From Alphaproteobacteria bacterium (lineage in GTDB: Bacteria > Pseudomonadota > Alphaproteobacteria > Bin95): a stretch of DNA of 64,000 nt. Position 1 is the stretch's first letter. Every line of letters starts with the position of its first letter. The position numbers were made by a program, and so were the translations under genes. Positions 11,025-30,342 of this stretch are shown here, in pieces. Where the stretch lies: the NCBI GenBank assembly GCA_038102935.1, contig JAYNYG010000002.1:62027-126026 (forward strand), in the 5' to 3' direction. The notes beneath the pieces were generated by a model. That model saw only the letters and a list, made by a program, of their open reading frames with translations. It was not told where the DNA came from and searched no databases.

Positions 11025-11028
11025 TCCG

Positions 11029-11703: not shown

Positions 11704-11744
11704 CCCGAATTCCGTGCGCTTAACAGTTTCAGGACCATCGTTCC

Positions 11745-12773: not shown

Positions 12774-12833
12774 AGGTGAGTATGGGTTCCATGCTTCAGG
12801 CTGAAGCAGTTGTCTCAGGGATGATCACAGCCC

Positions 12834-15263
12834 GTGGATAACATCGACGAAATTATCGCCGCTGCTGCAGGCGGCGCGCGGCTTTTCCATGATGAAGCGT
12901 TGGCGCTGGCCGAAACCGGGCCGGATGACCTAACGCCGCTGATGGCCGCCGCCGCAACGCTGCGGGATGCGCATTGGGGTGACAAGGTCTCCTATAGCCG
13001 CAAAGTCTTCATTCCGCTGACGCATCTCTGCCGGGATGTTTGCCACTATTGCACTTTCGCCAAGCCGCCAAAGAAAGGCGCGCTTGCGTTTATGACGCCG
13101 GAGCAGGTGCTCGCCGCCGCCCGCGCAGGTCAGGCCCAGGGCTGCAAAGAAGCGCTGTTCACGCTCGGCGACAAACCGGAACTCCGCTACCGGGCTGCAC
13201 GCGAACACTTGGCCGAACTTGGCTTTGAGACGACATTGGATTACCGCGCCGCCATGGCGAAGCTGGTATTTGAGGAAACCGGGATCGTCCCGCATCTCAA
13301 TCCTGGCTTGATGACCGACGAAGACCTCAAAACCCTCCGCCCCGTCGCCGCTAGTATGGGCATTATGGTCGAAAGCCTATCGGAACGGCTGACCGAAAAA
13401 GGCATGCCGCATTACGGCTCCCTGGATAAGAAACCCCAGGCCCGGATTGATACGCTGGAGGCCGCAGGCCGGGCGCAGGTTCCGTTCACAACCGGCATCC
13501 TAATCGGCATTGGCGAAACACGCGCTGAGCGGATCGAAGCATTGCTTGAAATCCGCCGGGTGCAGGAAGCGCATGGGCATATCCAGGAAGTTATCGTACA
13601 GAACTTCCGCGCCAAGCCGGACACCAAAATGCGGGATTGGCCGGAACCTGATCTGGATGATCTGGCCTGGACGGTCGCTATCGCGCGCCTTGTGATGGGC
13701 GGTGAGATGAGCGTGCAAGCGCCGCCGAACCTCTCGCCCGGCGGCCTCGCCAAGCTGGTGCGCGCAGGCGTCAATGATTGGGGCGGCGTATCGCCAGTAA
13801 CGCCGGATTATGTGAACCCAGAAGCGCCTTGGCCGCATCTCCAGCGCCTGGCTAACGAAACGGCGGCGGCGGGCAAGCTGCTGCTGGAACGGCTCACGGT
13901 CTATCCATCCTATGCGCTTGATGCAGCGCGCTGGGTTGATCCCGCCCTGGCTCCCTCCATCCGCCGCGCCATTGATGGCGAAGGCTATGCGCGCGCCGAC
14001 GAATGGGAAGCCGGAAAGCCGCATGATCCGCCAAAACGCGACCTAGACCTGCTGGCAGAACGACAAGCCCCCATCCAAGGCTCCCGCCTCGCCCGCATCC
14101 TCGACAAGCCGTTCGCGGATAAAATGCTGGATGCGGATGAAGCTGCATTCCTGTTCTCCGCCCGTGGCGATGCGTTTTCCGCCGTCGCCCGTGCTGCGGA
14201 CGCGCTCCGCCAGGAGGTTTCCGGCGATACGCTCACATATGTCGTGAACCGGAATATCAACTACACCAATGTCTGCTATTTCAAATGCCAGTTCTGCGCT
14301 TTCTCCAAGGGCAAACTGACAGAGAACCTCCGTGGCAAGCCCTATGTGCTGGACATGGAAGAGATTGAGCGCCGCGTCGGAGAAGCATGGGCCAGGGGCG
14401 CGACTGAGGTTTGCATGCAGGGCGGCATCCACCCCGCCTATACCGGGCAGACCTATCTGGACATTCTCGCCGCCGTCCGCCGGGGCGCGCCGGATATTCA
14501 TATCCACGCATTCACGCCTTTGGAAGTGCGCCAGGGCGCCGAAACGCTTGGCCTGCCGATCCCCGAATATCTTGGCATGCTGAAGGATGCTGGCCTCAGC
14601 ACCCTGCCCGGCACCGCCGCCGAAATCCTCCATGACGATGTGCGCAACATCATCTGCCCGGACAAGCTGAACACAGCCGAATGGTTTGAGGTGATGCGGG
14701 CGGCGCATGATATCGGCCTCCGCTCGACCGCGACCATCATGTACGGTCATGTTGAGCATTACGGCCACTGGGCGGCGCATCTGCTGCGGCTCCGCCAAGC
14801 GCAATCTGAATCTGGCGGGTTCTCAGAACTGGTGCCATTGCCGTTTGTGGCGGAAGAAGCGCCGATCTATCTGAAAGGCTTGGCGCGCAAAGGACCCACC
14901 TTCCGGGAAGCGATTCTGATGCATAGCATCGCCCGGTTGGCGCTGTTCCCGTGGTTCTCGAATATCCAGGCGAGCTGGGTGAAGCTTGGGCCGGATGGCG
15001 TTCAGGCTGCGCTGAACGCCGGCGCCAACGATATCGGCGGCACCTTGATGAACGAAAGCATCACCCGCGCCGCTGGCGCAGCCCATGGCGAGGAATTGGC
15101 GCCGCATCAAATGGAAGCCATCGCTCACGGCATTGGCCGCCCGGTCCGCCAACGCTCAACGCTCTATGGCTTTCCGCCAGAAGCGCAACAACAACGCGCC
15201 CGCCAGGCAGCCCCGCTCGACGCCGTAATCAATCGCCCCGCCAAGGAGTATGAGCGCGCGTGA
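12834..15263 (+). CDS. fbiC: Bifunctional FO synthase (CofG-CofH fusion)
   Basis: Two radical-SAM motifs, CRDVCHYC (after YSRKVFIPLT) and CYFKCQFC (after NRNINYTN); GVNDWGGVSPVTPDYVNPEAPWP; GANDIGGTLMNESITRAAGA. Confidence 0.95.
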   Translation: MDNIDEIIAAAAGGARLFHDEALALAETGPDDLTPLMAAAATLRDAHWGDKVSYSRKVFIPLTHLCRDVCHYCTFAKPPKKGALAFMTPEQVLAAARAGQAQGCKEALFTLGDKPELRYRAAREHLAELGFETTLDYRAAMAKLVFEETGIVPHLNPGLMTDEDLKTLRPVAASMGIMVESLSERLTEKGMPHYGSLDKKPQARIDTLEAAGRAQVPFTTGILIGIGETRAERIEALLEIRRVQEAHGHIQEVIVQNFRAKPDTKMRDWPEPDLDDLAWTVAIARLVMGGEMSVQAPPNLSPGGLAKLVRAGVNDWGGVSPVTPDYVNPEAPWPHLQRLANETAAAGKLLLERLTVYPSYALDAARWVDPALAPSIRRAIDGEGYARADEWEAGKPHDPPKRDLDLLAERQAPIQGSRLARILDKPFADKMLDADEAAFLFSARGDAFSAVARAADALRQEVSGDTLTYVVNRNINYTNVCYFKCQFCAFSKGKLTENLRGKPYVLDMEEIERRVGEAWARGATEVCMQGGIHPAYTGQTYLDILAAVRRGAPDIHIHAFTPLEVRQGAETLGLPIPEYLGMLKDAGLSTLPGTAAEILHDDVRNIICPDKLNTAEWFEVMRAAHDIGLRSTATIMYGHVEHYGHWAAHLLRLRQAQSESGGFSELVPLPFVAEEAPIYLKGLARKGPTFREAILMHSIARLALFPWFSNIQASWVKLGPDGVQAALNAGANDIGGTLMNESITRAAGAAHGEELAPHQMEAIAHGIGRPVRQRSTLYGFPPEAQQQRARQAAPLDAVINRPAKEYERA

Positions 15264-18103: not shown

Positions 18104-18516
18104 GCGGCGGACTCATCCTCATCAGACGTCACCAGCTTGAGCGAGGCTGAGTTCATGCAATAGCGCTGGCCCGTCGGCGCGGGGCCATCTGGGAAAACAT
18201 GGCCCAGATGCGCGTCGCATTTGCTGCACAGAACCTCTGTTCGGACCATAAAGAAGGATCGGTCCTTCTTTTCAGCCACAGCCTCATCATCAATCGGCGC
18301 CCAATAGCTCGGCCAGCCAGTGCCGGAATCGAACTTTGTTTCAGAGCTGAACAACGGCTGGCCGCAGCAGATGCAATCGTACCGGCCTTGCGTTTTTGTA
18401 TCGTGGTACTGGCCTGAAAATGCACGCTCCGTGCCATGCTTCCGCGTGACATGGTATTCTTCTGGCGAAAGCTGGGCTTTCCATTCGGCATCAGATTTAA
18501 CAACTTTATCTGTCAT
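18100..18516 (-). CDS. msrB: Peptide-methionine (R)-S-oxide reductase
   Basis: [50 protein letters not shown]; start taken at MTDKVVK. Confidence 0.97.
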
Positions 18517-18617
18517 GGTTCGGGACCCTTCATATTCGTTGATTGGCCTCAATATAGGCGCTGCGGCGGCGAACGGCTATGCTTTGGCGGTTTATTCAGG
18601 CGCGAAGGGTCTCCATC

Positions 18618-19748
18618 ATGTCTCACGATCTCGCCATCCTCGGCGGCCATATCATTGATCCCGCAAACGGCGTCGACGCAGTAACGGATATCGCCTTCAA
18701 AGATGCGGCTGTATCGGCCATTGGCGCCGATGCGAGCGCCGGCGCCGCAGAGACCATCAACGCTGACGGGCTTTACGTAACACCCGGCTTGATCGACCTG
18801 CACACGCATATTTATTGGGGCGGCACCTCACTCGGCGTGGACCCGGATGCGTATATGCGCCAGTCCGGCTGTACGACGCTCGCAGACGCCGGGAGCGCTG
18901 GCCCCGGCAATTTCCACGGGTTTCGCGCGCATATCATCGAGCCCTCGAAGGCCCGGATACTCGCCTATATCAACGCCAGTTTCGCCGGAATTTTCGCTTT
19001 CAGCCCGGCGGTGATGGTGGGCGAATCCGGCGATATTCGGCTGCTGAATCCGATGGAGGTCGTGCGCGTCGGCAATGAGAACCGCGATGTGATCGTCGGC
19101 GTGAAAGTGCGCGTCGGCCTGGTTGCGTCCGGCGGGATTGGGGCTGCGCCGCTTGATATCGCCATTGAGGCCGCAGATGCGCTTGGCATGCCGGTGATGG
19201 CGCATCTGGACCACCCGCCGCCGTCCCGCCTTGAAGTGCTCTCCCGCCTCCGCCCTGGCGATATCCTGACCCACTGCTACCGCCCCTTCCCCGCAGCGCC
19301 CACCGCCATGGATGGCCGTGTTCGGGAGGAAGTGTTGGCGGCGAAAGAAATGGGCGTCATCTTCGATATCGGCCACGGCAAAGGTTCATTTTCCTGGTCG
19401 GTGGCGGAAGCGATGATGGGCGCAGGTTTGCCGCCGGATTGCATTTCATCCGACGTGCACACGATGTCCGCACCCGGCCCAGCAGTCGATCAACTCGTGA
19501 CACTCTCCAAATTCCTGCATCTCGGCATGGGTTTGAGCGACATCATCGCCGCCTCCACCATCAACCCGGCCAAAGCCATGGGCCGCCCAGAACTCGGCGG
19601 CCTGGCCATCGGCGGCCCCGGTGACGCGACATTGCTAAGGATAGACAATGGCGCCTTCCCCCTGACAGACGCCAACGGCGTTACCGTCGAAGCCAACCGC
19701 CGCTTAGCGCGGGCGGGGATTGTTCGGGATGGGGCGGTTTTGCGTTAG
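18618..19748 (+). CDS. Amidohydrolase/deacetylase-family metallohydrolase (dihydroorotase-like)
   Basis: PGLIDLHTH, DAGSAG, GVKVR, PVMAH, GDILTHCY, FDIGHG.GSF, ISSDVH. Confidence 0.88.
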   Translation: MSHDLAILGGHIIDPANGVDAVTDIAFKDAAVSAIGADASAGAAETINADGLYVTPGLIDLHTHIYWGGTSLGVDPDAYMRQSGCTTLADAGSAGPGNFHGFRAHIIEPSKARILAYINASFAGIFAFSPAVMVGESGDIRLLNPMEVVRVGNENRDVIVGVKVRVGLVASGGIGAAPLDIAIEAADALGMPVMAHLDHPPPSRLEVLSRLRPGDILTHCYRPFPAAPTAMDGRVREEVLAAKEMGVIFDIGHGKGSFSWSVAEAMMGAGLPPDCISSDVHTMSAPGPAVDQLVTLSKFLHLGMGLSDIIAASTINPAKAMGRPELGGLAIGGPGDATLLRIDNGAFPLTDANGVTVEANRRLARAGIVRDGAVLR

Positions 19749-19843
19749 ACGAGCAAGGCTAACCTGAACTCGAATTCAACTAGCCCGGGAGGCTTGCTTC
19801 CGGCATACTGAAACGACCAAACGCTGGGCGCGTTTTCAGTAGG

Positions 19844-22800
19844 ATGATTTTGAAGTTGGCGAACACTGGCACTGCAGTTTTGGACCAAGATTTGGCAAAG
19901 GAAAATCCAAATGCCGTCGGGCTTGCAGACGCTATTTGCAGTGCAATCGAGCGCCTAACCGCTGAACCGCTGAAAATCACAACGCCAGATCGCCCGCTGC
20001 CGCTTTATCGCGATATGACTGCAAGGCACCGCGCCGGCGCCGTTGGGGTGCTGCTTGGCGCCGCCCGCGCGCCGCACTTGCGCAAAATCGGCGCAAATCT
20101 GCAAAAACTTGCGGGCGATTCGCCATTGGCCAATGTTGCCTTCGCTGAGGCTGAACCCGCAGCCCACCAAGCCGCTGCAGAGGTTACGCATGCGCGCACA
20201 CAGATGATCGCTGATCTCCGCGAGCATCCGAAAGGCGCCAAACCAGCCCGCATACTGCTGGACGCAACGCATCTCTTACAGCTTGGAGATATAGATGGCG
20301 CCAAAGCCAAACAGGCGGCGTTGTCCGGCGCTGATCCAAAATTCAGGCGCATTCTTCAGATGCGCATTCTGGACGCCGAAGGCTTCATCGCGGACGCCGA
20401 CCGGCTCGCCCTGCAAATTCAACGAATGCACCCAGATACCCTGCCGCCTTACGCTGGCATTGCAGCAGAATACCGCCGGGTCGGCAGCGTTGAATTGCCT
20501 GCGCCGGACGCCGCTGCTCTCACTCCGGCAGCTGTCAACGCTTATCTCCGTTATCTGATTTTGAACGACAAACGAGACGCGGCCATCGCCTTTGCCGCAG
20601 AGCAACATACGCTTGTCGGCGGGTCCCTGGCGCTGCTGGCGCGTGCGGCATCTGTCGTGCTTGCGGTGGAGGGGCATGGGTCTGGCGTTTGGCGCCGGAT
20701 CATCACTGCGGCTGAGACGTTACCGGTGACGTCAAAGGTCGCATTCATGTCAATCACTGCGGAACTGACGCCGCACCGGGTTGCAAGCCTGCTCGATGAA
20801 GCGGTTATCGTCGCTGAAGACGCGAACTGCACACAATGGACTCCGTTGATTGAACGCGGATATGCACTTGCCGAGCCGCCGCCCACCGGTGCGCCAACAC
20901 TGAACGCCGCCCTTTCCGCGCTCCTAACGATTAAGGATGCGCGCGCCATCACGCCTCGGCCTCACCTACACCAGGCGGCGGCAGAACACGGCATCATCGT
21001 CGCGGACGAAAGCACAAACACCGCCATCTTCCGTGCCCGCACGACCGCCAATGCCGCGGCTGACTTAGTCCCCGCCGGGGAACGACAAACCTTGACACCG
21101 CGCGCCGCGCAATTTCTGCAAGAAACCCGGAAAGCCGGGTCTGGGCTGGTTTTATTGTCCGCCCACGGCGTTCGGCTGGGCCGAGGCAATTACTTGTCCG
21201 CCGCAGCGGCCGCACTGGCTGGATTTTCCGTAAAAACGGTCGTCGCCTTCGACGGCATTGAGTTTGAGCAACGCTTCCAAAGCTATATCGATACGCTCAC
21301 GAGTCAGGGCGGGCGGATCGAGATCGTTAATCGCAAAGGCGGCGATGTCGCGGAAGAAACGCTCGCAATGCTTGCTCATTTGGGTGAGGGCGGCGCGATC
21401 GATATAGCGCCAGACGGTATCTACACCATCGGCCAAAAAACGGCGGCGCCATGGCTGATGCAGCCGATGCCGATATCGATCTATGCAGCCCAGCTTGCCG
21501 TCGCCAAGGGCGCTGCTGCTGCATTCACGTCTGTCACGCCGGAGCCAAACGGGCGGATAATCGTCGATATGATTCCGCTGGCGCTGCCGCCTGCAACCGG
21601 CGCATTGCCCGTGCGCGCCGCATGGCTGACACAGCGCCTGGCGCGAACGATCCGCCAAGCAACATTGGCCTCTGAAACGCCCGTGAGCATGAGCGGACTT
21701 GTGGAAGGCGGCGGACGCCCTGCGCACAGAACTTTACTGCCCTTGGCTCAATGGGGTGAAGATCCAGTCGTTCGGCAAAGCCTCTGCGGCTGGCTTGCTA
21801 GCATGCCAACCACCCCTGAAGAAATCGCGTTCCAAGGGCCAAACGGTGCAACACCTTTCGGCGCATTGCGGGATTATGCGCTTTCTTCCGCCGCGATGTT
21901 GTTGCATTTCCAGGCGGGTAAGCCAGCGCATCTCCACCCAAACCGGCGGTTTCTCCATCAACACCGCGTCCTAACGATCCTACCCGATGGTGAGGCGGCG
22001 TTAGCGCTCAGCCTTGGCGCACTCGCCGCTGGCAGCCTAATTTCAGTCAACGGCGATGATACCGCGCCAGCCGCTCTCGCTGACCGCGTACGCGCCTTCA
22101 AGCCTGACCTGATCATCGCAGGCGCTTCCATTTGGAGCAGCGTGCTCGGCGCGAACGCCAGGCTCAACCGCTTCAACGTATTAATTACCGATGATGCAGG
22201 CGACGCCGCAGCTATAAGGGATCTGACATACAGCTTCCCGCCAGCGACCGAACTGCCGTTGATGGCGGAAGGTATGCCTGGAGTAGCGGTATTCACGTCT
22301 GGTAGTGACGGCGCGCCCAAGGGTGTTGTCGTGCCGAATACAGTACTGTCTGGCGGCACAGGGCTGGACAAGCTCCTACCACTAAGCGCTGGAGACCGCG
22401 TTGCCTATTTCACGCGATGGGACGCGATCGGCATTGTAGATATTCTGGCATGCCTTCGCGGCGGAGCTGCCATCATCAAACCAGCGAAAGGCTTAGCCAA
22501 CAGCGCTGAGGCGTTATTGAATTGGATCACCGACGAAGGCGTCTCGGTCGTCTCACTGCCGGCGAGCTTATGGGCGGGAATTAGCCGAAATGCCGCAATG
22601 CGCACGTCACCTTTGGCGCAGCTGCGCGCCGGGATCATGTGGGGCGAGCGCATTGAAACGCAGACTGTGCGCCAAATGGCTGAAGTCGCGCTAAACTGCG
22701 CGATGTTCACAACCTTTGGCGCAAGCGAAGCGACCTATATGTCATTTGGCCAATTGGACCCCGCAGCGCTTGATGGCCCGTTTAGCCCTGGCGGCAAGCC

Positions 22801-23650
22801 TGCTCCCAGCATGAAGCTTACGATCACCTCTGGCGTTACAAGCGCGCAAGGAGCGGGCGCAGAAGAAGACCCGGCGACGACGCCAGATACGACGCTGAAC
22901 GTAACAGGTCCCAATGTGATGCTGGGCTATTTCGCTGACCTCGCGGACGCGAATGCACTGCTCACCCCTCATTCAGACCGTTCAATTGTGCTGACTGACC
23001 AGATCCGCCTATCGGCTGCTGGCGATGTCGAAATCTATGGTCGCCGCGACGCGATCATCAAGATCAGTGGCCGCAGGGTATCTCTAATGGAAGCGCAGAC
23101 TGTAGCGGAGACCGTACCCGGCGTGCGCCGCGCCGTCGCATTCGTTCTAAAAGACGGCGCGCGAGATAGGATCGCGCTCGCCTTGGAAAGCGACAGCCAA
23201 GACCCGTCTGCGCTAAAGCTACTGGCGGCAAAGGCCATCGCCGATAGCATCTTCCCTGGCGCTCGCCCGCAGCGGATTGCGGTTCTCTCTGAATTCCCAG
23301 CCGGCCCAAGCGGCAAGTTGGACAGGGCAAAACTCCGCGCTGCGGCGACAATGGCTGTGAATGCAGACGCACCCCCAATCGCCGTCCCGGCCCCGCCAAT
23401 TGCCAGCGCCCCGCAAACGCCGCGCACATTCTTGAGCGCGCTGGAAGAATGGGCGACCTATAATGCAATGGCGCCAGCGGGCCGGTTCAACCCGGACGCC
23501 CGCCCGCCAGAATTGGATTCAATCGATATCATGGACCTGATGCTTTTGGCCGAGGAAACCTCGGGCAAAACCGGATCGACTGCTGTGTTTGGCGGCGATG
23601 GGCCGAGCAGTTGGCGTGCATTGGCTGCAGCCCTGGCGCCGGGCGGATAG
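19844..23650 (+). CDS. Multidomain protein: helical/TPR-like N-terminus + LpxL-like acyltransferase + adenylation domain + carrier protein
   Basis: GLVLLSAH...HLGEGGAIDIAPDG...AAQLAVAKGA (lipid A acyltransferase fold); FTSGSDGAPKGV, WD, FGASEA, GPNVMLGYF, YGRRDAIIKISGRRVS, PSGKLDR (ANL motifs); LDSIDIMDL (phosphopantetheine Ser1226). Confidence 0.78.
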   Translation: MILKLANTGTAVLDQDLAKENPNAVGLADAICSAIERLTAEPLKITTPDRPLPLYRDMTARHRAGAVGVLLGAARAPHLRKIGANLQKLAGDSPLANVAFAEAEPAAHQAAAEVTHARTQMIADLREHPKGAKPARILLDATHLLQLGDIDGAKAKQAALSGADPKFRRILQMRILDAEGFIADADRLALQIQRMHPDTLPPYAGIAAEYRRVGSVELPAPDAAALTPAAVNAYLRYLILNDKRDAAIAFAAEQHTLVGGSLALLARAASVVLAVEGHGSGVWRRIITAAETLPVTSKVAFMSITAELTPHRVASLLDEAVIVAEDANCTQWTPLIERGYALAEPPPTGAPTLNAALSALLTIKDARAITPRPHLHQAAAEHGIIVADESTNTAIFRARTTANAAADLVPAGERQTLTPRAAQFLQETRKAGSGLVLLSAHGVRLGRGNYLSAAAAALAGFSVKTVVAFDGIEFEQRFQSYIDTLTSQGGRIEIVNRKGGDVAEETLAMLAHLGEGGAIDIAPDGIYTIGQKTAAPWLMQPMPISIYAAQLAVAKGAAAAFTSVTPEPNGRIIVDMIPLALPPATGALPVRAAWLTQRLARTIRQATLASETPVSMSGLVEGGGRPAHRTLLPLAQWGEDPVVRQSLCGWLASMPTTPEEIAFQGPNGATPFGALRDYALSSAAMLLHFQAGKPAHLHPNRRFLHQHRVLTILPDGEAALALSLGALAAGSLISVNGDDTAPAALADRVRAFKPDLIIAGASIWSSVLGANARLNRFNVLITDDAGDAAAIRDLTYSFPPATELPLMAEGMPGVAVFTSGSDGAPKGVVVPNTVLSGGTGLDKLLPLSAGDRVAYFTRWDAIGIVDILACLRGGAAIIKPAKGLANSAEALLNWITDEGVSVVSLPASLWAGISRNAAMRTSPLAQLRAGIMWGERIETQTVRQMAEVALNCAMFTTFGASEATYMSFGQLDPAALDGPFSPGGKPAPSMKLTITSGVTSAQGAGAEEDPATTPDTTLNVTGPNVMLGYFADLADANALLTPHSDRSIVLTDQIRLSAAGDVEIYGRRDAIIKISGRRVSLMEAQTVAETVPGVRRAVAFVLKDGARDRIALALESDSQDPSALKLLAAKAIADSIFPGARPQRIAVLSEFPAGPSGKLDRAKLRAAATMAVNADAPPIAVPAPPIASAPQTPRTFLSALEEWATYNAMAPAGRFNPDARPPELDSIDIMDLMLLAEETSGKTGSTAVFGGDGPSSWRALAAALAPGG

Positions 23651-23659
23651 ACATCATCA

Positions 23660-25501
23660 ATGACAGAAAATGATCCGCAAAACGCCGAACTCGAAAACGC
23701 TAAGAAGAAGCACCAATCGCTGGCGGCTGACTACAGCGCCATTCGCAAAGAGAACGCCCGGCTGACAAAGCGGGCGCAGGGCCTGGAAAGTACGCTTGCC
23801 ACAGCGAATGCAAGGGTAGCGGCGCTCAACACCAAACTCGCGGCCACCCGGGATCGCAGCATCATGCTGGAGGCGCGCGCAAGGGAAACCGCAGCAGCCC
23901 TTAACGATGCGGCAAAGAAAGCAGCCATATCTGACGAAGCACGGGCGAATGCTGTTCGGTATTTTGAGCAGTTGTCAGATTTGCGCGGCCGCTTGCAAAC
24001 ACGCACTGAGGCCCTCCGCGCCACCGAGCGCCGGATCGACCGACTTGAACACACCATCAACCGCGAAGTCGAGCGCACTGTAGCCGCGACCGAGAAGATG
24101 ACGCCGGTCCGGGAGCGTAACCTCACTCTGGAAGAACGCCTCAAGACACTATCACTACGGCTCAAGTCCGCATCCGCGAAAGTCGATCTTCTAGAGACGG
24201 ACAATGATCGGCTGCGCGCGGCAGTGAGCGCGCTTGAGGTTTCTGAGGACGACGCGCAGGCGATTATTGGAGAGCCAGTCACGGCGTCGCTTGCGGCGAT
24301 AGACAAAGCAAACGAAGTCGCCGAAGCCCGCCGTGAAGCTGTATTTAGTCTCAGGAACCGGCTTGATGTCCAAAATGAGCGTGTACGCCAACTGCATACG
24401 CTAACGCCGATAAATTGGCTTTTTAACTACGGCAAAGCTGTCCTTGAAACCATGCCCGAAGATGTTGACTGCTTGCTAACTCATGGTTTGCAGCCGCTCG
24501 CAATCATGCCGTTTGCAGAGCCAGGACGCTTTCAGAAAACCATCAATGACTGCATCGAGATTCCGTCTTTGCTACAACGGGCTGTGGGCGGCAACTCTGA
24601 TCCTGTTGTCCGCGATTGGATATCCCGGGCGCTGGGCTCACACCTGCCGGAGTCGGATACCGTATTTACGGTAAGTGCCGGTCTGACCGCGCATCTGCAA
24701 TCCACAGGTTGCGAGAATGTCGTAACTCTGCCGAATTTTCGCCGCCATAGCCCTGTCCCAACGCCAAACGACCTCCGCGAACGTCTAAACATCCCGCCAG
24801 GCGCATTTGTTATTCTTTCTGCAGGAAGGGCAACGAGCGGATGGGAAGAGGCTTTACGTGGGTTTGCCCAGAGCGGGGATGATCTGCATTTGGTCAATCT
24901 CGGCCCGTTCTCGCCAGTATCATATGGCGATGAGGTCAGGGCCTTGGTCCAGACACTGGGCCTCAGTGACCGCGTGCATCTTTGCGACCCTGTTCCCTAT
25001 GCCGAATTGTCCGCTTGCTGCGCCAGCGCGGATATCGGCGTGATCATCCGTGATCCAGAGATCGGCAATCACGCGATCTCGCTGCCCAATCGCGTGTTTG
25101 ATTATCTAGCGGGCGGCCTGCCGTTTTTGGCGGCCGACATGCCGGATATAGCGAATATCATTAATCAGTTCCGCTGCGGCGAAGTATTGACTGACGTATC
25201 AGCCAGTGGATGGGCGAATGGCGTTGCAGCTGCGCGCGAAGAGCAAGCGGCGTGGCGTCAGAACGCAACAGTCGCGAACGACACAATGACATGGGAGGCC
25301 CATCTTCCTGTGCTGGAGTCGGCGTTCGAAGGGGTTAACCATGTCGCAATTGCAGGCATCGGCGATCTAACGAAGAACAATAGGACCTACCGGATCGCCG
25401 AAGACCTTATCGGGTTGGGGAAAGCAGTCAGTATTTTCACAATCCGGGAATCTGAACGAGCCCGGTTTCTAAACCTCGGCGCAACTGTAACAACAGCCTG
25501 A
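23660..25501 (+). CDS. Coiled-coil + GT4-family glycosyltransferase
   Basis: About 245-aa heptad-rich N-terminus; DTVFTVS, LPN, LRERL.IP, ILSAGR, RVH..DPVPY.EL, ADIGVI, SLPNRVFDYLAGGLP. Confidence 0.82.
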   Translation: MTENDPQNAELENAKKKHQSLAADYSAIRKENARLTKRAQGLESTLATANARVAALNTKLAATRDRSIMLEARARETAAALNDAAKKAAISDEARANAVRYFEQLSDLRGRLQTRTEALRATERRIDRLEHTINREVERTVAATEKMTPVRERNLTLEERLKTLSLRLKSASAKVDLLETDNDRLRAAVSALEVSEDDAQAIIGEPVTASLAAIDKANEVAEARREAVFSLRNRLDVQNERVRQLHTLTPINWLFNYGKAVLETMPEDVDCLLTHGLQPLAIMPFAEPGRFQKTINDCIEIPSLLQRAVGGNSDPVVRDWISRALGSHLPESDTVFTVSAGLTAHLQSTGCENVVTLPNFRRHSPVPTPNDLRERLNIPPGAFVILSAGRATSGWEEALRGFAQSGDDLHLVNLGPFSPVSYGDEVRALVQTLGLSDRVHLCDPVPYAELSACCASADIGVIIRDPEIGNHAISLPNRVFDYLAGGLPFLAADMPDIANIINQFRCGEVLTDVSASGWANGVAAAREEQAAWRQNATVANDTMTWEAHLPVLESAFEGVNHVAIAGIGDLTKNNRTYRIAEDLIGLGKAVSIFTIRESERARFLNLGATVTTA

Positions 25502-25502
25502 G

Positions 25503-26639
25503 ATGGCGATGGGGAGGAAGGGCGTGTTCGCTTTGGTTGTCGGCACGCGACCAAGTTTCATTATGGCCGCCCCGATCATTGCGGCGTTTGATGATGCGGG
25601 CGCGGCACTTAAAGTTCTGCATTCGGCGCAGCATTATTCCGAAAACATGGATGACGTGTTTTTCCGGGATCTTGGCATCCGCCAGCCGGACCATCGCCTC
25701 ACGGCGCAACCTGATCAGAAATCCCCAGCACGGCAAATCGCCCATATCATGATCGGCGTGGAAGATTGGCTACGGGCTGAGACGCCCCAAGCGCTTATGG
25801 TGCTCGGCGACACAAACTCCAACCTCGGCGCTGCATTGGCCACCCGCAAACTGAATGTGCCATTGGCGCATGTTGAAGCTGGTGAGCGCTCTGGCGACTT
25901 GGCCCAGGCGGAAGAGCAAAACCGGCGCCTGATCGACCATATGGCGGACGTGAATTTCGCCACGAACGCCCGCAGCTGCGCCAATCTCAAGGCGGAAGGC
26001 ATTCCGGACGCGCGGATACTCATAACCGGCAATCCCATTGTCGATGCTGTCCTGAAGAACCGCGACAAGGCGGCTGCGCTTGACCTGAGCGATAGGCCAT
26101 ACAGCGACAACCTCAAAGGCAAGTTCGGCGTGATGACGCTGCATCGCCAGGAGAATGTCGACGATCCTGACCGGCTGCCTGTCATCCTCAGGGACATCCA
26201 AGCAGGCGCCGCTGCCGCCGGCGCGCCCGTTATATTTTTTGCCCACCCACGCACTCTAGCGCGCATAAACGAACAAGAATTGATGCCAGGTCTGGAAAGC
26301 GATCCAAATATTATGATCCTGCCGGGCGCTGGATATCATGAATTTGTCGCCGTGCTGCAGCGTGCATCATTCTGCGTTACGGATTCTGGCGGCGTTCAAC
26401 AAGAAGCCTGCATTGTCGGCGTGCCTGCCGTTACGATTATGGATGAAACACCCTGGCCGGACACCATTTCGAATGGCGCCAATGAGCTCTGCCGCCCTGC
26501 CGTCGATCCCATTACGCCGGCAATTGGGCGCGCCATGCAGAAGTCCTATGCCACATCGCCTTGGTCCCAACCATTTGGGGATGGCGACACCGGCGCGCGC
26601 ATTCTACAAGTGCTGGTCGAGCGCTTCGGAACTCGCTAA
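25503..26639 (+). CDS. wecB: UDP-N-acetylglucosamine 2-epimerase (non-hydrolysing, WecB-like)
   Basis: VGTRP, QHYS..M, VLGDTNS, HVEAG.RS, EE.NR, TGNPIVD, TLHRQENVD, TDSGGVQQEA, PFGDG. Confidence 0.85.
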   Translation: MAMGRKGVFALVVGTRPSFIMAAPIIAAFDDAGAALKVLHSAQHYSENMDDVFFRDLGIRQPDHRLTAQPDQKSPARQIAHIMIGVEDWLRAETPQALMVLGDTNSNLGAALATRKLNVPLAHVEAGERSGDLAQAEEQNRRLIDHMADVNFATNARSCANLKAEGIPDARILITGNPIVDAVLKNRDKAAALDLSDRPYSDNLKGKFGVMTLHRQENVDDPDRLPVILRDIQAGAAAAGAPVIFFAHPRTLARINEQELMPGLESDPNIMILPGAGYHEFVAVLQRASFCVTDSGGVQQEACIVGVPAVTIMDETPWPDTISNGANELCRPAVDPITPAIGRAMQKSYATSPWSQPFGDGDTGARILQVLVERFGTR

Positions 26640-26648
26640 ATAAGCGTC

Positions 26649-27143
26649 ATGCCAAAAGTTCTCGTAGATGCAGACGCCTGCCCCGTAAAGGCAGAGATTT
26701 ATAAGGTTGCGGCGCGGTATCAGGCGCAGGTGATCGTGGTCGCCAATAGCTATTTACGGATACCTGATGATCCTATGATCCGCCAGGTTACCGTCAGCGA
26801 CGGGTTTGATGCGGCGGATGATTGGATTGCTGAGAATGCGGACGCCACATGCGTCGTCATCACGTCCGACATTCTGTTGGCTGAACGCTGTGTGAAGGCA
26901 GGCGCCTTGGTGCTGGCGCCCAATGGCAAGCCGTTTACAGAAAACTCCATCGGCGCCGCCGTTGCGACGCGGGCTATCATGGCGGATTTGCGGGCGGGCG
27001 CCGTCGGCGAGCAAATCGGCGGGCCGCCGCCATTTCAGAACAAGGACCGCTCGCGATTTCTGTCAGCGCTCGATGAAGCGCTAGTGCGCTTGAAGCGCCA
27101 GGCGAAAGCTACGCCTCCCCCACCGCCCCCAGCGCTTGGCTAA
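26649..27143 (+). CDS. YaiI/YqxD (UPF0178) family protein
   Basis: VDADACPVK, DAADDWI, ITSDILLA, GGPPPF...DRSRFL. Confidence 0.92.
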   Translation: MPKVLVDADACPVKAEIYKVAARYQAQVIVVANSYLRIPDDPMIRQVTVSDGFDAADDWIAENADATCVVITSDILLAERCVKAGALVLAPNGKPFTENSIGAAVATRAIMADLRAGAVGEQIGGPPPFQNKDRSRFLSALDEALVRLKRQAKATPPPPPPALG

Positions 27144-28710
27144 CAGCCCGTGCATCCGGCGCATTCCCGCGCCAAGCGAGATGGCCGTCGGGGCGGATCA
27201 GCGCTATATCTGCGCCGTATACATCGCGCGCAGGGTCAAACGCCAAATCGACCCGGCGCACCGGTGCGCCAGCATTCTGCATTGGCGCGGTATCCAGCTC
27301 AGGATTGAAGCACAGCAGCGTGAAGCCGGACGGGTCGAACAGATCAAACAACGCTTGACCATCTGGCAGAATAAAGGACGGCGCGCGCATACCGGGCCAG
27401 GCCCCTGCCGGAATTGACGCAGGATCATCAGGCGGCGGCGTGCCTGGATCGTTTGCCAATACCGGCGCGATCAAGGGGGAGGCGTCATAGCGGTAAGCGA
27501 ATTCAACGCCCCAAGCCTCATTCTCCAAATTCCCGAGGCCAGCGATGGCGGCGGCGAGGCTGGCGCGCTCGCCCGCATCTTCCGCTGCATTCGGATGCGC
27601 TTGATATGCCGCCATGATCTCCAGCCGGACACCCGTATGCGCGCCGGACCAGCCGCGATTGATATGGCCGACAGGTCGCCGCTCGACCTCATAAGCGTCC
27701 AAAAAACCATCGCTGGCCCATCCATTCAGCCTGGCTGCCAGCATCCATCCGAGCGCCACAGCGTCGCCGATGCCTGTGTTCATGCCGTAGCCGCCGGTCG
27801 GGATATATTGATGCGCCGCATCGCCCGCCAGGAAAATACGGCCCGTTTTATACGCATCTGCCAGCAGCAGATGCGGCTCCCATGGATTGGCGACCAGGAT
27901 TTCGGCAGTGATATCTTGGCCAAGGAACGTGCGCAGTGTGTCCATCGGATTGACGGATGCGGGATCAACGGCGTCCGGGAAGCGGGCATGCAGGGTCCAG
28001 GTGTCGACGTCATTCTGCGCGATCAGCGTGCCAGCGGGAGATTGGTAATGCCAGGCGATACCGAAGCGCTGCAAAAGTGCGCGTTCCTCGCTCTTGAAAT
28101 GGATCATGTAGCGGTTGGCGACGCCGGTATCGCCTTCAAGGCTGATGCCCATGGCTTGCCGGACGGTGCTATTGCCGCCATCGCATGCAGCGAGATACGC
28201 GCCTTCAATGCGCTTGACCCGGTCAGTCTCTCGGTCGCGCACATCGATCCATACGCCGGAGGGCGATTGGCCTGCATCCTCCACCGCCATGCCCCAGCGC
28301 GCATCGATCAGAGGCTCGGCCAGAGCGGCGGCCTGCAGGATCGGCTCAACCACGATCTGGGAAACGCGCATGCCGGGTTCCAGCGGCTGCGCGCCGTCAT
28401 TCACCGCATGATAGCGCGCGCGGAGCTCTGCGGGCGGGGCATATTTGAAGCGATGCAGTTCATGCCCCGCCATGGCCGTAACCCAGGCGACATCCAGCGG
28501 ATGCGTATCCGGCACCGCCGCCGCCCGCAGCGCATCTGCCAGGCCTAGCCTGCCAAACAACTCCATACTGCGGCCGTTGGTGATATCCATCTTTGGATGG
28601 CGGGTAGTCGTGTAGGCGCGCTCAAACACCCGGCTCGGCACGCCGTGGCGCGCAAGCTCTAGCGCCAGCGTCATCCCGACGGGGCCAGCGCCTGCGATCA
28701 AGACCGTCAT
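27109..28710 (-). CDS. FAD-dependent aromatic monooxygenase
   Basis: GAGPVG, ACDGGNS.VR, LAGDAAH...PTGGYGMNTGIGDA, C-terminal LIRPDGHLAWRG. Confidence 0.92.
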   Translation of the reverse strand: MTVLIAGAGPVGMTLALELARHGVPSRVFERAYTTTRHPKMDITNGRSMELFGRLGLADALRAAAVPDTHPLDVAWVTAMAGHELHRFKYAPPAELRARYHAVNDGAQPLEPGMRVSQIVVEPILQAAALAEPLIDARWGMAVEDAGQSPSGVWIDVRDRETDRVKRIEGAYLAACDGGNSTVRQAMGISLEGDTGVANRYMIHFKSEERALLQRFGIAWHYQSPAGTLIAQNDVDTWTLHARFPDAVDPASVNPMDTLRTFLGQDITAEILVANPWEPHLLLADAYKTGRIFLAGDAAHQYIPTGGYGMNTGIGDAVALGWMLAARLNGWASDGFLDAYEVERRPVGHINRGWSGAHTGVRLEIMAAYQAHPNAAEDAGERASLAAAIAGLGNLENEAWGVEFAYRYDASPLIAPVLANDPGTPPPDDPASIPAGAWPGMRAPSFILPDGQALFDLFDPSGFTLLCFNPELDTAPMQNAGAPVRRVDLAFDPARDVYGADIALIRPDGHLAWRGNAPDARAVSQALGAVGEA

Positions 28711-29307: not shown

Positions 29308-30342
29308 CTATTTGGCTTGCGCGAGCGGGGCGAATGCGTCCCGGCGGCGTTCTTCCAAAGCGAAACACGCGGCCTCGCCAATGCCCGTCGGCTGCAATAT
29401 TGGCGACTCGCTCTTGCACCGGTCGTTCGCCAGCGGGCAGCGGGGATGGAAGCGGCAGCCGGACGGCGGATCAATCGGGTTCGGGATTTCGCCGACAACT
29501 TGGGTGCGCGTCCGGCCCGTCATGTCCAGATCAGGCACGGCGTCGAGCAGCATGGACGTATAGGGATGCTGCGGGTTCTGGAACAGCGCCTTGCCTTCAG
29601 ACACCTCAACCAAGCGGCCAAGATACAGAACCCCAATCCGCGTCGCCATATGGCGAACGACGGATAGATCGTGGCTGATGAATAGATAAGTCAGGCCGAA
29701 CTCATCCTGCAGGTCGCGCATCAGGTTCAGGATCTGCGCCTGCACAGACACATCCAGCGCCGAGGTCGGCTCGTCGCAAACAATGAATTCCGGCTTGGCG
29801 GAGAGCGCGCGCGCGATGGCGACGCGTTGGCGCTGGCCACCCGAAAACTCATGCGGAAACTTAGCGGCGTCACTGGCGGCAAGGCCAACGGTTTCCAAGA
29901 GCTCATCAACGCGCTTAGCGGCGGAGGCTTTGTCGGACGCCAGATCGAACGCCCGGATCGGCTCCGCGATAATATCGCCAACGCGCCAGCGCGGGTTCAA
30001 GCTGGCGAACGGATCCTGGAAAATCATCTGGAAGCGGCTGCGCATCTGCCGAGCGTTCGCCGCTGTCGCTTTCCGCATATCATCGCCGTCGAACAACACC
30101 CGCCCGCCGCTTGGCGCCAGCAGGTTCACGATCAGCTTAGCGATGGTCGATTTGCCAGACCCCGATTCGCCGACGAGCGCGAAAGTTTCACCTTTGCGTA
30201 TTTCGAAGGATACATCGTCAACCGCCGTCAGGGTTCTCTTCGGCTCCCGCTCAATCATGCGGTTGAGCCAGGGTTTCGAGAGATCGAATACCCGGCTAAG
30301 CCCTTCGACCTGAATGAGCGGCTTTCCAGCTTGATCGCTCAT
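29308..30342 (-). CDS. Oligopeptide/dipeptide ABC transporter ATPase (DppF-like)
   Basis: [29 protein letters not shown]-terminal Cys cluster; start at MSDQAGK. Confidence 0.93.

What the first reader, a model, noticed from the sequence alone, without database searches (positions are those of the whole stretch)
19844..23650. Single-polypeptide acyltransferase-adenylation-carrier enzyme: an 'AlmEFG in one protein' for decorating a surface glycolipid/glycan
Seen in sequence: after a helical TPR-like N-terminus, about 21090-21680 encodes an LpxL/HtrB-fold acyltransferase (GLVLLSAH at residue 441, ...GGAIDIAPDG). About 21770-23350 encodes a complete ANL adenylation domain (FTSGSDGAPKG, WD at the A4 position, FGASEA, GRRD.IIKISGRRV, PSGKLDR). 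The C-terminus is a carrier domain with LDS(1226)IDI. No condensation or thioesterase domain is present. Established: Vibrio cholerae AlmE (A domain), AlmF (carrier) and AlmG (lipid A acyltransferase family) glycylate lipid A as three separate proteins; Aas fuses a different (PlsC-type) acyltransferase to an acyl-ACP synthetase without a cis carrier. Inference: this protein activates a small acid, loads its own carrier and transfers it onto lipid A or a polysaccharide. The Asp at A4 hints at an amino-acid substrate. The gene heads an apparent operon with a GT4 and a UDP-GlcNAc 2-epimerase. The acyltransferase His lacks the usual HX4D/E partner (HGVRLG), so its chemistry may be atypical. I do not recall this architecture being characterised.
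Basis: partly seen in the sequence, partly recalled or inferred. Interest (0 to 1): 0.82.

Follow-up and report, generated by a model that had tools for sequence, protein, structure and literature searches.

The report
Lipid A-type acyltransferase with built-in loader
One 1268-residue protein of a marine alphaproteobacterium joins a lipid A-type acyltransferase to an acid-activating enzyme and a carrier domain, so it probably activates a small acid and attaches it to a membrane lipid or sugar by itself, a job that known systems split between three proteins.

Summary
ORF 19844-23650 (+) encodes 1268 aa, and every quoted motif is at the stated residue.

- **Adenylation domain.** Pfam sees only this domain.
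- **Acyltransferase domain.** Residues 340-645 model well (pLDDT 85.6). The model matches LpxM and PatA far above anything else: VIA Z 17.8 and 17.4 against 9.7 for PlsC, and Foldseek E 4.8e-10. A profile-profile comparison with 28 LpxL-type proteins gives 95% probability, E 2.7e-8, with clean controls.
- **Carrier domain.** The C-terminus matches carrier-protein profiles (88%, E 3e-6), with Ser1226 on the pantetheine serine.
- **Conservation.** His441, Asp524, Trp933, Lys1158 and Ser1226 are invariant in all rows that cover them.
- **Rarity.** 28 hits in 1.84 billion representatives. All named hosts are Alphaproteobacteria, mostly marine. Public records call it only "AMP-binding protein".

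The GT/epimerase neighbourhood is not conserved: sugar genes lie nearby in 4 of 11 loci. "TPR-like" is unconfirmed.

Most likely the protein activates a small, probably amino, acid, loads it on its own carrier and esterifies a lipid or glycan hydroxyl. This is a fused analogue of AlmEFG. Substrate and acceptor are unknown. I rate it a new variant of a known kind.

The parts
19844..23650 (+). Whole gene, 1268 aa (alternative TTG start at 19850 gives 1266 aa)
19844..20860 (+). N-terminal domain, residues 1-339. Predicted all-helical, no family assigned, weakly conserved
   Evidence: No Pfam hit. AF2 gives helices but pLDDT 45. The Atlas gives only leads. No meaningful PDB sequence hit, best E 0.02
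20912..21730 (+). LpxL/LpxM/PatA-type (lipid A late acyltransferase fold) domain, residues about 357-629, with its alpha/beta core at about 414-615
   Evidence: AF2 pLDDT 85.6, pTM 0.84. VIA: LpxM Z 17.8 and PatA Z 17.4. Foldseek: 5kn7 E 4.8e-10. hhalign 95.2%, E 2.7e-8, with controls
21164..21166 (+). His441, putative catalytic base. Residue +5 is Gly, not Asp/Glu
   Evidence: H in 27 of 27 rows that cover it. Aligned to the His of HxxxWE in LpxL
21413..21415 (+). Asp524, aligned with the Asp of the LpxL 'DQ' motif. Probable partner of His441
   Evidence: D in 28 of 28 rows. Alignment. LpxM H122-D192 contact of 2.6 A is described in review PMC6286764. The equivalence D192 = DQ-motif Asp is my inference
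21770..23362 (+). ANL adenylation domain of NRPS type, residues about 643-1173, with the A3, A4 (WD), A5-like (FGASEA), A7/A8 and A10 (PSGKLDR) motifs
   Evidence: Pfam AMP-binding E 4.7e-20. TIGR01733 113.8 bits, below its 317.4 cut-off. PDB: 5u89 E 1.3e-17. Conservation
23405..23647 (+). Carrier (ACP/PCP-like) domain, residues about 1188-1268
   Evidence: hhalign against 22 ACPs: 88%, E 3.1e-6. Against ACPs plus PCPs: 82.6%, E 9.6e-6, 63 columns. PDB ACP 9l1v E 0.059. No Pfam hit
23519..23521 (+). Ser1226, predicted phosphopantetheine attachment site
   Evidence: S in 24 of 24 rows that cover it. Aligned to the ACP/PCP serine
23660..25501 (+). Neighbour: 613-aa protein with an N-terminal coiled coil and a GT1-type glycosyltransferase domain, 9 nt after the stop of the big gene
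   Evidence: A 34%-identical homologue lies unlinked in G074, and none was found at E<=1e-10 in 34 of the 36 other genomes of the family
25503..26639 (+). Neighbour: non-hydrolysing UDP-GlcNAc 2-epimerase (WecB)
   Evidence: Epimerase_2 E 3e-86. TIGR00236 253 bits, above its cut-off
26649..27143 (+). Neighbour: YaiI/YqxD (DUF188) protein, last gene of the same-strand run
18579..19748 (+). Upstream neighbour: amidohydrolase/deacetylase-family metallohydrolase. Last gene syntenic with congeners

Best explanation
The gene encodes a self-contained 'activate, carry, transfer' enzyme. Four steps are inferred. (1) The NRPS-type adenylation domain adenylates a small carboxylic acid, most likely a small amino acid. 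(2) It thioesterifies that acid to the phosphopantetheine arm on Ser1226 of the C-terminal carrier domain. (3) The carrier swings to the LpxL/LpxM/PatA-type acyltransferase domain. (4) There a His441-Asp524 pair deprotonates a hydroxyl of a lipid or glycan acceptor (lipid A, another glycolipid, or a lipid-linked sugar, at the cytoplasmic face), which attacks the thioester and forms an ester. The helical N-terminal domain, in place of the membrane anchor of LpxL/LpxM, would bind the membrane or the acceptor. What is shown here: the four-part architecture, the folds or profiles of three parts, and the invariance of the key residues. What is inferred: every chemical step, the nature of the acid and the acceptor.
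For: Domains: AMP-binding E 4.7e-20. The acyltransferase model has pLDDT 85.6. It matches LpxM at Z 17.8 over 244 residues and PatA at Z 17.4, against PlsC 9.7 and GPAT1 9.0, and Foldseek gives 5kn7 E 4.8e-10. hhalign against 28 LpxL-type proteins gives 95.2%, E 2.7e-8, over 177 columns, with His on His and Asp524 on the DQ Asp. All 14 controls scored 0.5% or less. The carrier matches ACPs at 88%, E 3.1e-6, and ACPs plus PCPs at 82.6% over 63 columns with Ser on Ser; the best of 11 controls has E 0.038.

Conservation in a family only 25-30% identical overall: His441 27/27, Asp524 28/28, A3 Ser/Gly/Lys 24/25, 24/24 and 24/25, Asp/Glu at the A4 position 24/24, Trp933 25/25, Lys1158 24/24, Ser1226 24/24. 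All three active centres are therefore under selection together.

The architecture is constant: 20 of the 28 hits are 1189-1297 aa long.

Amino-acid-type A domain: TIGR01733 scores 113.8 bits against 56 or less for fatty-acid ligase models. PDB hits are led by NRPS A domains at 67 bits, against FadD10 45 and DltA 33.

Precedent: LpxM's His122 contacts Asp192 (review PMC6286764). AlmE, AlmF and AlmG do the same three steps as separate proteins (PMC4278540).

The genome has a PPTase and a canonical LpxL-type gene. Sugar or glycolipid genes adjoin the gene in 4 of 11 loci. Independent marine DNA contigs carry the gene intact and bridge it to the GT.
Against: Pfam does not recognise the acyltransferase or the carrier even at E<=5. 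The whole-genome PF03279 and PF00550 scans did not pick up this gene. The HX4D/E acid is absent here and in 22 of 27 rows, and the Arg of the LpxL 'YR' position is absent too, so the catalytic power or the reaction may differ. The A domain is below the TIGR01733 cut-off. Its specificity positions were mapped with GrsA numbering recalled from memory, so 'small amino acid' is weak. The carrier looks more like an ACP than a PCP: E 3e-6 against 0.0095. The neighbourhood is not conserved, with no sugar genes seen near 7 of 11 loci, so the acceptor is a guess. There is no clear membrane anchor. Transcription is not shown: there are only two short contigs in one metatranscriptome, which may be DNA carry-over.
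Confidence: 0.58

Rival explanations
1. Fatty-acid version (Aas-like or AcpXL/LpxXL-like). The ANL domain activates a free fatty acid, loads it on the cis ACP-like domain, and the LpxM/PatA-type domain acylates lipid A or a glycolipid. This would be a scavenging or remodelling acyltransferase.
For: The carrier resembles ACPs more than PCPs (E 3.1e-6 against 0.0095). All characterised members of the matched fold except AlmG move fatty acyl chains, for example LpxM and PatA with palmitate. Aas models give partial hits at 54 and 32 bits. A TesB-like acyl-CoA thioesterase lies directly downstream of the homologue in G087. Public annotation of some members reads 'acyl-CoA synthetase'.
Against: The amino-acid A-domain model outscores every fatty-acid ligase model by more than 55 bits. 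NRPS A domains lead the PDB list. Asp/Glu at the A4 position that binds the amino group in NRPS domains is present in 24 of 24 rows. The invariant Trp933 sits at a pocket-lining position, by recalled numbering, where a long chain would need space.
Confidence: 0.22
2. The LpxM-like domain releases the carrier-bound acid onto a soluble acceptor or water. In that case the enzyme makes a small-molecule product (an ester or amide, a minimal NRPS-like pathway) and has nothing to do with the envelope.
For: There is no membrane anchor. The second catalytic pair of LpxM (Glu/Arg) is missing. The gene is an orphan in most loci, with varied neighbours such as a solute-binding protein, an RND pump and a thioesterase.
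Against: No precedent for such a role of this fold was seen in the papers read. PatA is also anchorless and acts on a membrane glycolipid (entry titles). Sugar or glycolipid genes lie nearby in 4 of 11 loci. No tailoring or export genes recur beside the gene.
Confidence: 0.12
3. The acyltransferase-like domain is a catalytically dead scaffold, and the protein is simply an adenylating enzyme with a carrier that serves a partner in trans.
For: The HX4D/E acid is lost in 22 of 27 rows. Pfam is blind to the domain.
Against: His441 (27/27), Asp524 (28/28), the GG before it and the VPW...P block are conserved in a family that is otherwise 25-30% identical. This is not expected of a dead site. The domain is never lost from full-length members.
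Confidence: 0.05

Closest known systems
AlmE / AlmF / AlmG of Vibrio cholerae (glycine addition to lipid A)
   Same: [quoted passage not shown] For this I saw passages of PMC4278540 and the title only of Henderson et al. 2017 in reference lists. The AlmE structure 4OXI is among the PDB hits of the A domain.
   Different: Here there is one polypeptide in the order transferase, ligase, carrier, plus a 340-residue helical N-domain. The A domain is no closer to AlmE (36 bits) than to many NRPS domains (up to 67 bits). The AlmG and AlmF sequences could not be fetched, so no direct comparison was made. Substrate and acceptor are unknown.
LpxL / LpxM / PatA family (Pfam PF03279, lipid A late acyltransferases)
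   Same: The fold matches (Z 17.8 and 17.4) and so does the profile (95%). The catalytic His and the downstream Asp are conserved, and the block order is the same (His strand, GG..D, VPF/W).
   Different: The domain is below the Pfam threshold. It has no Asp/Glu at His+5 and no Arg at the 'YR' position, so the Glu127/Arg159 pair of LpxM is missing. There is no N-terminal membrane helix. The donor carrier is fused in cis rather than being free acyl-ACP or acyl-CoA.
Aas (2-acylglycerophosphoethanolamine acyltransferase / acyl-ACP synthetase)
   Same: It has an acyltransferase domain followed by an ANL adenylating domain in one protein. Partial NCBIfam hits to PRK06814 and PRK08633 fall on the ANL part.
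   Different: By recall, Aas has a PlsC-type acyltransferase, activates fatty acids and uses ACP in trans. Here the transferase is of the LpxM/PatA type (Z 17.8 against 9.7 for PlsC), the A domain is of NRPS type and the carrier is fused.
DltA / DltC / DltB / DltD (D-alanylation of teichoic acids)
   Same: A ligase and a small carrier deliver an amino acid to a cell-envelope polymer. DltA is among the hits.
   Different: By recall, the transferase there is an MBOAT membrane protein acting across the membrane, and the proteins are separate.
Stand-alone NRPS A-T loading didomains
   Same: There is an A domain with A3-A10 motifs followed by a carrier about 35 residues after A10. The best sequence relatives are NRPS modules.
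   Different: There is no condensation, thioesterase or reductase domain. Off-loading would be by an LPLAT-fold domain placed N-terminally.

Membership tests
Lip_A_acyltrans (PF03279; LpxL/LpxM/PatA) | Match to the Pfam model above its cut-off | tested here: not met
   No hit at E<=5 for residues 383-649. The whole-genome scan with PF03279 found only the canonical gene on another contig.
Lip_A_acyltrans (PF03279; LpxL/LpxM/PatA) | Profile-profile homology to bona fide members | tested here: met
   hhalign gives 95.2%, E 2.7e-8, 177 columns against 28 LpxL-type proteins. The reversed control, 10 shuffled controls and 3 other-domain controls all scored 0.5% or less.
Lip_A_acyltrans (PF03279; LpxL/LpxM/PatA) | Three-dimensional fold of LpxM/PatA | tested here: met
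   The model has pLDDT 85.6. VIA Z is 17.8 and 17.4, with the next family at 9.7. Foldseek E is 4.8e-10.
Lip_A_acyltrans (PF03279; LpxL/LpxM/PatA) | HX4(D/E) catalytic motif | tested here: not met
   His441 is present but +5 is Gly. D/E at +5 occurs in only 5 of 27 family rows.
Lip_A_acyltrans (PF03279; LpxL/LpxM/PatA) | Conserved downstream Asp (LpxM Asp192, partner of His122) | tested here: met
   Asp524 is invariant in 28/28 rows and aligned to the DQ-motif Asp. The LpxM contact is described in review PMC6286764. The residue equivalence is inferred.
Lip_A_acyltrans (PF03279; LpxL/LpxM/PatA) | N-terminal membrane helix (LpxL/LpxM) | tested here: inconclusive
   The best 19-residue hydropathy window scores 1.99 at 257-275 and contains Arg. 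Nothing comparable lies at the N-terminus. PatA lacks such a helix too.
ANL superfamily / NRPS adenylation domain | AMP-binding model above its cut-off and core motifs A3, A7/A8, A10 Lys | tested here: met
   PF00501 scores 72.2 bits against a cut-off of 29.9. The motifs are located and conserved.
ANL superfamily / NRPS adenylation domain | Amino-acid adenylation subfamily (TIGR01733) above its cut-off | tested here: not met
   It is the best NCBIfam hit, but 113.8 bits is below the 317.4 cut-off.
Phosphopantetheine-binding carrier (PF00550) | Match to the Pfam model | tested here: not met
   No hit at E<=5. The gene is not among the 4 PF00550 matches in the own genome at E<=1e-5.
Phosphopantetheine-binding carrier (PF00550) | Profile-profile homology with the serine in register | tested here: met
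   88%, E 3.1e-6 against 22 ACPs. 82.6%, E 9.6e-6 over 63 columns against ACPs plus PCPs. Weaker against PCPs alone, E 0.0095. Ser1226 is present in 24/24 rows.
Phosphopantetheine-binding carrier (PF00550) | Serine actually carries phosphopantetheine | not testable with these tools
   This needs mass spectrometry. A PPTase gene exists in the genome.
AlmEFG-type lipid A aminoacylation system | Ligase, carrier and LABLAT-type transferase acting together | tested here: met
   All three modules are present in one chain.
AlmEFG-type lipid A aminoacylation system | Three separate proteins, glycine substrate, lipid A acceptor | not testable with these tools
   The modules are fused here (a shown difference). 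Substrate and acceptor need biochemistry.

The most novel reading that the evidence does not exclude
This is the first single-polypeptide, tRNA-independent aminoacyl-lipid (or aminoacyl-glycolipid) synthase. A lipid A late-acyltransferase fold has been recruited as the off-loading domain of a minimal NRPS-like A-T module. It works with only the His-Asp pair, and a new helical N-domain selects the acceptor. It would give a scattered set of mostly marine Alphaproteobacteria (Ruegeria, Litoreibacter, Sulfitobacter, Hyphomonas and others) an amino-acid-decorated envelope lipid that has not yet been described.
Probability: 0.33. Interest if true: 0.78.

Novelty: new variant of a known kind. Interest (0 to 1): 0.62.

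Why it matters
If the mechanism holds, it shows that the lipid A late-acyltransferase fold can serve as a release domain for a carrier-bound acid inside one protein. That would be a compact alternative to the three-protein AlmEFG system and the four-protein Dlt system for changing envelope chemistry. It would also point to an undescribed lipid or glycan modification in several alphaproteobacteria, most of them marine. Public databases label the family only as 'AMP-binding protein', so two of its three functional domains are currently unannotated. Cultured carriers exist (Ruegeria atlantica HKCCD9150, Ruegeria sp. ANG10 and SCP11, Litoreibacter janthinus), so the hypothesis can be tested directly. 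The loss of the HX4D/E acid with retention of the His-Asp pair also bears on which of LpxM's two proposed catalytic pairs is sufficient for acyl transfer.

Tried and rejected
- **Pfam on sub-pieces.** Scans of residues 1-399, 383-649 and the last 96 residues found nothing at E<=5.
- **PDB sequence search, N-terminal half.** The profile of the N-terminal half gave only chance-level hits (best E 0.02, reticuline oxidase).
- **First AF2 model.** The model of residues 1-637 with 4 sequences was unusable (pLDDT 45), so nothing is claimed about the N-domain fold beyond 'predicted helical'.
- **hmmsearch of the C-terminal profile.** Against 23 NRPS proteins it gave no significant hit (best E 0.25).
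- **ESM Atlas.**
  - For the C-terminus it gave carrier-protein clusters at 0.89, under the 0.9 lead threshold.
  - For the N-domain it gave nothing consistent.
- **Complex prediction.** The acyltransferase domain with the carrier domain returned 'no answer' (score 0.01). This is no evidence either way.
- **Promoter and terminator scan.** The scan of 18300-27400 found no more promoter-like sites than shuffles do, and no terminator-like site in an intergenic gap.
- **Plasmids.** No plasmid in PLSDB encodes a relative of residues 1-640.
- **The search for related loci with the 27-row alignment.** It failed for lack of a conserved stretch.
- **Glu/Arg pair co-retention.** I tested whether members that keep an acid at His+5 also keep a basic residue at the LpxL 'YR' position. 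The result was 3 of 5 against 5 of 22. The numbers are small and the rows are kin, so I treat it as a hint only.
- **Literature on a fused architecture.** Four searches found none:
  - 'Lip_A_acyltrans' + 'AMP-binding': 0 papers.
  - 'lipid A biosynthesis acyltransferase' + 'adenylation domain': 0 papers.
  - 'LPLAT' + adenylation + carrier protein + fused: 1 paper, on Dlt.
  - 'late acyltransferase' + 'nonribosomal peptide': 3 papers, all on Vibrio cholerae.
  - These cover only the held open-access library, and supplements are closed.
- **Metatranscriptome.** The coverage gaps are not evidence of silence.
- **Neighbour scans were partial.** Only the nearest ORFs of each locus were scanned, for example 4 of about 17 ORFs in L158 and 3 of about 17 in L161. 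'No sugar genes' therefore means none among those scanned.

Full report
**Observation**

The window has an open frame at 19844..23650 (+) of 1268 codons. Its translation has no stop. A TTG at 19850 preceded by AGGA is an alternative start. The identical database entry P0002 is 1266 aa long.

The gene is real. Three full-length relatives (57, 55 and 47% identity) were found among 5.8 billion clustered proteins; the other 23 hits were NRPS proteins matching only 28-35% of the query.

**Automatic annotation sees only one domain**

- Pfam finds only AMP-binding (residues 705-1030, E 4.7e-20).
- Residues 1-399, 383-649 and the last 96 residues give nothing, even at E<=5.
- NCBIfam's best model is the amino-acid adenylation domain TIGR01733 at 113.8 bits, below its cut-off of 317.4. 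It is followed by MxcG (78 bits), an exosortase-associated ligase (77), long-chain fatty-acid ligase (56), Aas (54) and DltA (39).
- Against PDB sequences the C-terminal half hits 57 adenylating enzymes. NRPS A domains lead (5u89, LgrA; 67 bits), with FadD10 at 45, AlmE (4OXI) at 36 and DltA at 33 bits.

**The family**

A profile of residues 1-637 was built from the four close sequences (alignment A2) and scored against 1.84 billion representative proteins. It found 28 proteins at E<=0.001 and nothing else. Twenty of them are 1189-1297 aa long; the eight shorter ones (139-801 aa) look like fragments. Members are only about 25-30% identical to each other over their full length, yet they keep the same architecture.

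Public names are 'AMP-binding protein', 'class I adenylate-forming enzyme family protein' or 'acyl-CoA synthetase'. Named hosts are Litoreibacter janthinus, Brevirhabdus sp. and Ruegeria sp. SCP11.

Loci fetched from species-representative genomes come from these hosts:

- Sulfitobacter
- Hyphomonas
- Bauldia
- Limimaricola
- Ruegeria sp. ANG10
- Ruegeria atlantica
- uncultured Alphaproteobacteria
- one MAG labelled only Pseudomonadota

The gene is rare and patchy:

- It is in 2 of 37 genomes of the window's own family: the window's genome and G074, of the same genus.
- It gave 3 matches in 401 sampled genomes of the class. One of these is a weak 109-residue match containing a stop, so 2 are real.
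- No plasmid in PLSDB encodes a relative of residues 1-640.

**The middle domain is an LpxL/LpxM/PatA-type acyltransferase**

With 27 sequences (alignment A4), AlphaFold2 models residues 340-645 at mean pLDDT 85.6 and pTM 0.84.

- **Foldseek against the PDB** ranks A. baumannii LpxM first (5kn7, E 4.8e-10). Next come M. smegmatis PatA (7ojt, E 7.4e-9), plant GPAT (E 2.5e-6) and PlsC (E 7e-3).
- **An independent all-against-representatives alignment** gives:
  - LpxM Z 17.8 (244 residues, rmsd 4.0) and PatA Z 17.4 (234 residues).
  - PlsC 9.7 and GPAT1 9.0, well below.
  - Unrelated folds at 6.2 or less; one complex I assembly subunit scores 7.8.
- **Sequence test.**
  - I extracted 28 LpxL-type proteins from genomes of the class. 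The locus from the unpublished genome G040 was left out.
  - I compared profiles with hhalign. The result was probability 95.2%, E 2.7e-8, over 177 columns.
  - His441 falls on the His of HxxxWE, Asp524 on the Asp of the 'DQ' motif, and VPW on VPF.
- **Controls**:
  - Reversed template: 0.2%.
  - Ten column-shuffled templates: 0.4% or less.
  - The family's N-domain, A domain and C-terminus against the same template: 0.1%, 0.1% and 0.5%.

**Active-site residues of the transferase**

- His441 is present in 27 of 27 rows that cover it, and Asp524 in 28 of 28.
- The +5 position is Gly in the window's protein and acidic in only 5 of 27 rows.
- A review of LPS enzymes describes two pairs in LpxM: His122 at 2.6 A from Asp192, and Glu127 paired with Arg159 (PMC6286764, passages read). 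The primary paper was not held.
- By the hhalign register, Asp524 corresponds to that downstream Asp (my inference). The position of the LpxL 'YR' arginine is Ala468 here.
- The family therefore keeps the His-Asp pair and has mostly lost the Glu-Arg pair. Three of the 5 rows with an acid at +5 also have Arg or Lys at the 'YR' position, against 5 of 22 rows without. With small numbers and related sequences, this is only a hint.

**The C-terminus is a carrier domain**

- Ser1226 is invariant, in 5 of 5 rows and 24 of 24.
- A 5-sequence profile hits one solved acyl carrier protein (9l1v, E 0.059) across the serine helix.
- hhalign of the 24-row C-terminal alignment gives:
  - Against 22 ACPs taken from genomes of the class: 88.1%, E 3.1e-6, 26 columns.
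  - Against ACPs plus 34 NRPS carrier domains: 82.6%, E 9.6e-6, over 63 columns spanning the whole domain, serine on serine.
  - The best of 11 controls has E 0.038.
  - Against the NRPS carriers alone the match is weak (E 0.0095, 61 columns, right register; best control 0.064).
- The domain starts about 35 residues after the A10 motif, the usual place for a carrier.
- The genome encodes a phosphopantetheinyl transferase.

**Adenylation domain details**

- The A3 motif residues, the A4 Asp (D in 22 rows, E in 2, of 24), Glu962, Asp1069, Arg1078 (23 of 24) and the A10 Lys1158 (24 of 24) are conserved.
- Using GrsA numbering recalled from memory, the ten pocket positions read D-A-I-S-I-W-T-Y-M-K.
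- Trp933 is invariant (25 of 25), and an aromatic residue or His occupies the next-to-last pocket position in 22 of 24 rows.
- This suggests a small pocket and one shared substrate class, but it is an inference and not a prediction from a tool.

**N-terminal domain**

- Nothing was found in Pfam or in PDB sequences.
- Atlas hits are mixed, with TPR clusters only at ranks 27-28.
- The most hydrophobic 19-residue window (257-275, score 1.99) contains an Arg. There is no clear membrane helix.

**Surroundings in the window**

| Position | Feature |
|---|---|
| Ends 96 nt before the gene | Amidohydrolase/deacetylase-family gene |
| Starts 9 nt after the stop codon | 613-aa coiled-coil plus GT1 glycosyltransferase |
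| Next downstream | WecB |
| Next downstream | YaiI-family gene |
| Next downstream | Opposite-strand FAD monooxygenase |

In two congeners (G075, G072) whose flanking genes are about 90% identical at the protein level, similarity to the window stops at the end of the amidohydrolase gene. None of the downstream genes appears within 15 kb or 10 kb.

The glycosyltransferase has one clear homologue (34% identity, E 1.9e-79) among the 36 other genomes of the family. That homologue is in G074, the only other carrier of the big gene, but it lies on another contig among unrelated genes. G087, which also carries the big gene, has no homologue with this query.

**Other loci**

| Locus | Neighbours seen |
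|---|---|
| L002, Sulfitobacter MAG | SqdB-like NAD epimerase/dehydratase (303 bits, below its cut-off) and a Gfo/Idh/MocA oxidoreductase |
| L077, Hyphomonas MAG | Three GT2 genes and a sulfotransferase |
| L078 | DegT-type sugar aminotransferase, an SDR and a Gfo/Idh/MocA enzyme upstream; SpoIID and a GH3 downstream |
| L001, G074 | LysR regulator and a large RTX/cadherin adhesin |
| L037, G087 | TesB-like thioesterase directly downstream |
| L079 | ORFs without Pfam hits |
| L158 and L161, the two Ruegeria loci | A shared solute-binding protein upstream |
| L159 | RND pump |
| L160 | Peroxidase |

Sugar or glycolipid genes therefore lie nearby in 4 of 11 loci. Only the nearest ORFs were scanned in each locus. 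The link to glycan or glycolipid metabolism is suggestive, not established. The enzyme is mostly an orphan gene, which fits an acceptor that every cell already has.

**Occurrence**

- The 5.9-kb stretch is held at half or more of its sampled words by 14 runs of estuary, seawater and marine metagenomes. The 20 runs that hold any part of it come from 12 studies.
- Contigs of three DNA runs cover it at 99% identity or more. One 2230-base contig bridges the end of the big gene and the start of the glycosyltransferase.
- One metatranscriptome holds two short identical contigs, one in the A domain and one in the glycosyltransferase. This does not prove transcription.

**Interpretation**

Three catalytic or carrier centres are conserved together in a very divergent family with a constant architecture. 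This argues for a single reaction cycle: adenylation, thioesterification to the cis carrier, and transfer by the LpxM/PatA-type domain to a hydroxyl acceptor.

The only characterised member of that fold family that uses an aminoacyl carrier protein is AlmG, working with AlmE and AlmF (PMC4278540, passages; PMC12012098, passages; Henderson 2017, title only). PatA shows that the fold can also acylate a sugar hydroxyl of a glycolipid (entry titles).

I rate the amino-acid reading above the fatty-acid (Aas-like) reading because of the A-domain scores and the conserved A4 acid. The ACP-like carrier and the thioesterase neighbour in one genome keep the fatty-acid rival alive.

**Prior description and novelty**

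Four full-text searches found no description of the fused architecture. The complex-prediction job gave no verdict.

My verdict is a new variant of a known kind. It is worth bench work because cultured carriers exist.

Noticed in passing
window 30339-31421 (-): An Opp/Dpp-type ABC transporter ATPase is interrupted by one in-frame stop (...PLSEK*AREHA...), which splits it into ORFs 30933-31421 and 30339-30908. It is either a nonsense mutation or an assembly error.
   Followed up: partly
window 11014-15263 (+): A run of coenzyme F420 biosynthesis-type genes: CofC-like guanylyltransferase, luciferase-like monooxygenase, and an 809-aa double radical-SAM protein of FbiC (CofG/CofH) type.
   Followed up: no
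window 19748-19844: Similarity to two congeners (G075, G072; flanking proteins about 90% identical) ends exactly after the amidohydrolase gene. None of the window's genes downstream of it turns up within the 15 kb (G075) or 10 kb (G072) beyond the break in those genomes. The extent of the variable region was not delimited.
   Followed up: partly
window 23660-25501 (+): The glycosyltransferase has an unusually long N-terminal coiled-coil region of about 200 residues, with many weak coiled-coil Pfam hits, before its GT1 domain. No NCBIfam model matches it. Its only clear homologue in the family's genomes is in the other carrier of the big gene, unlinked.
   Followed up: partly
L037 9206-10060 (-): In genome G087 a TesB-like acyl-CoA thioesterase (4HBT_3 and 4HBT_3C) follows the homologue on the same strand with a 36-nt gap. 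It may edit or release the carrier-bound group.
   Followed up: no
L002 3027-4238 (+): In the Sulfitobacter MAG the gene about 700 nt downstream of the homologue is closest to UDP-sulfoquinovose synthase (SqdB; 303 bits, below the 575 cut-off). This hints at a sulfolipid or glycolipid link.
   Followed up: no
L001 13663-19812 (-): Beside the G074 homologue lie a 1478-aa protein with eight Big_9/cadherin-like repeats and RTX repeats, and a 554-aa VWA/cadherin protein. Together they look like a large adhesin locus.
   Followed up: no
window 19844 / 19850: There are two candidate starts: ATG at 19844 with no clear Shine-Dalgarno sequence, and TTG at 19850 with AGGA five bases upstream. The database entry uses the shorter form of 1266 aa.
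   Followed up: partly
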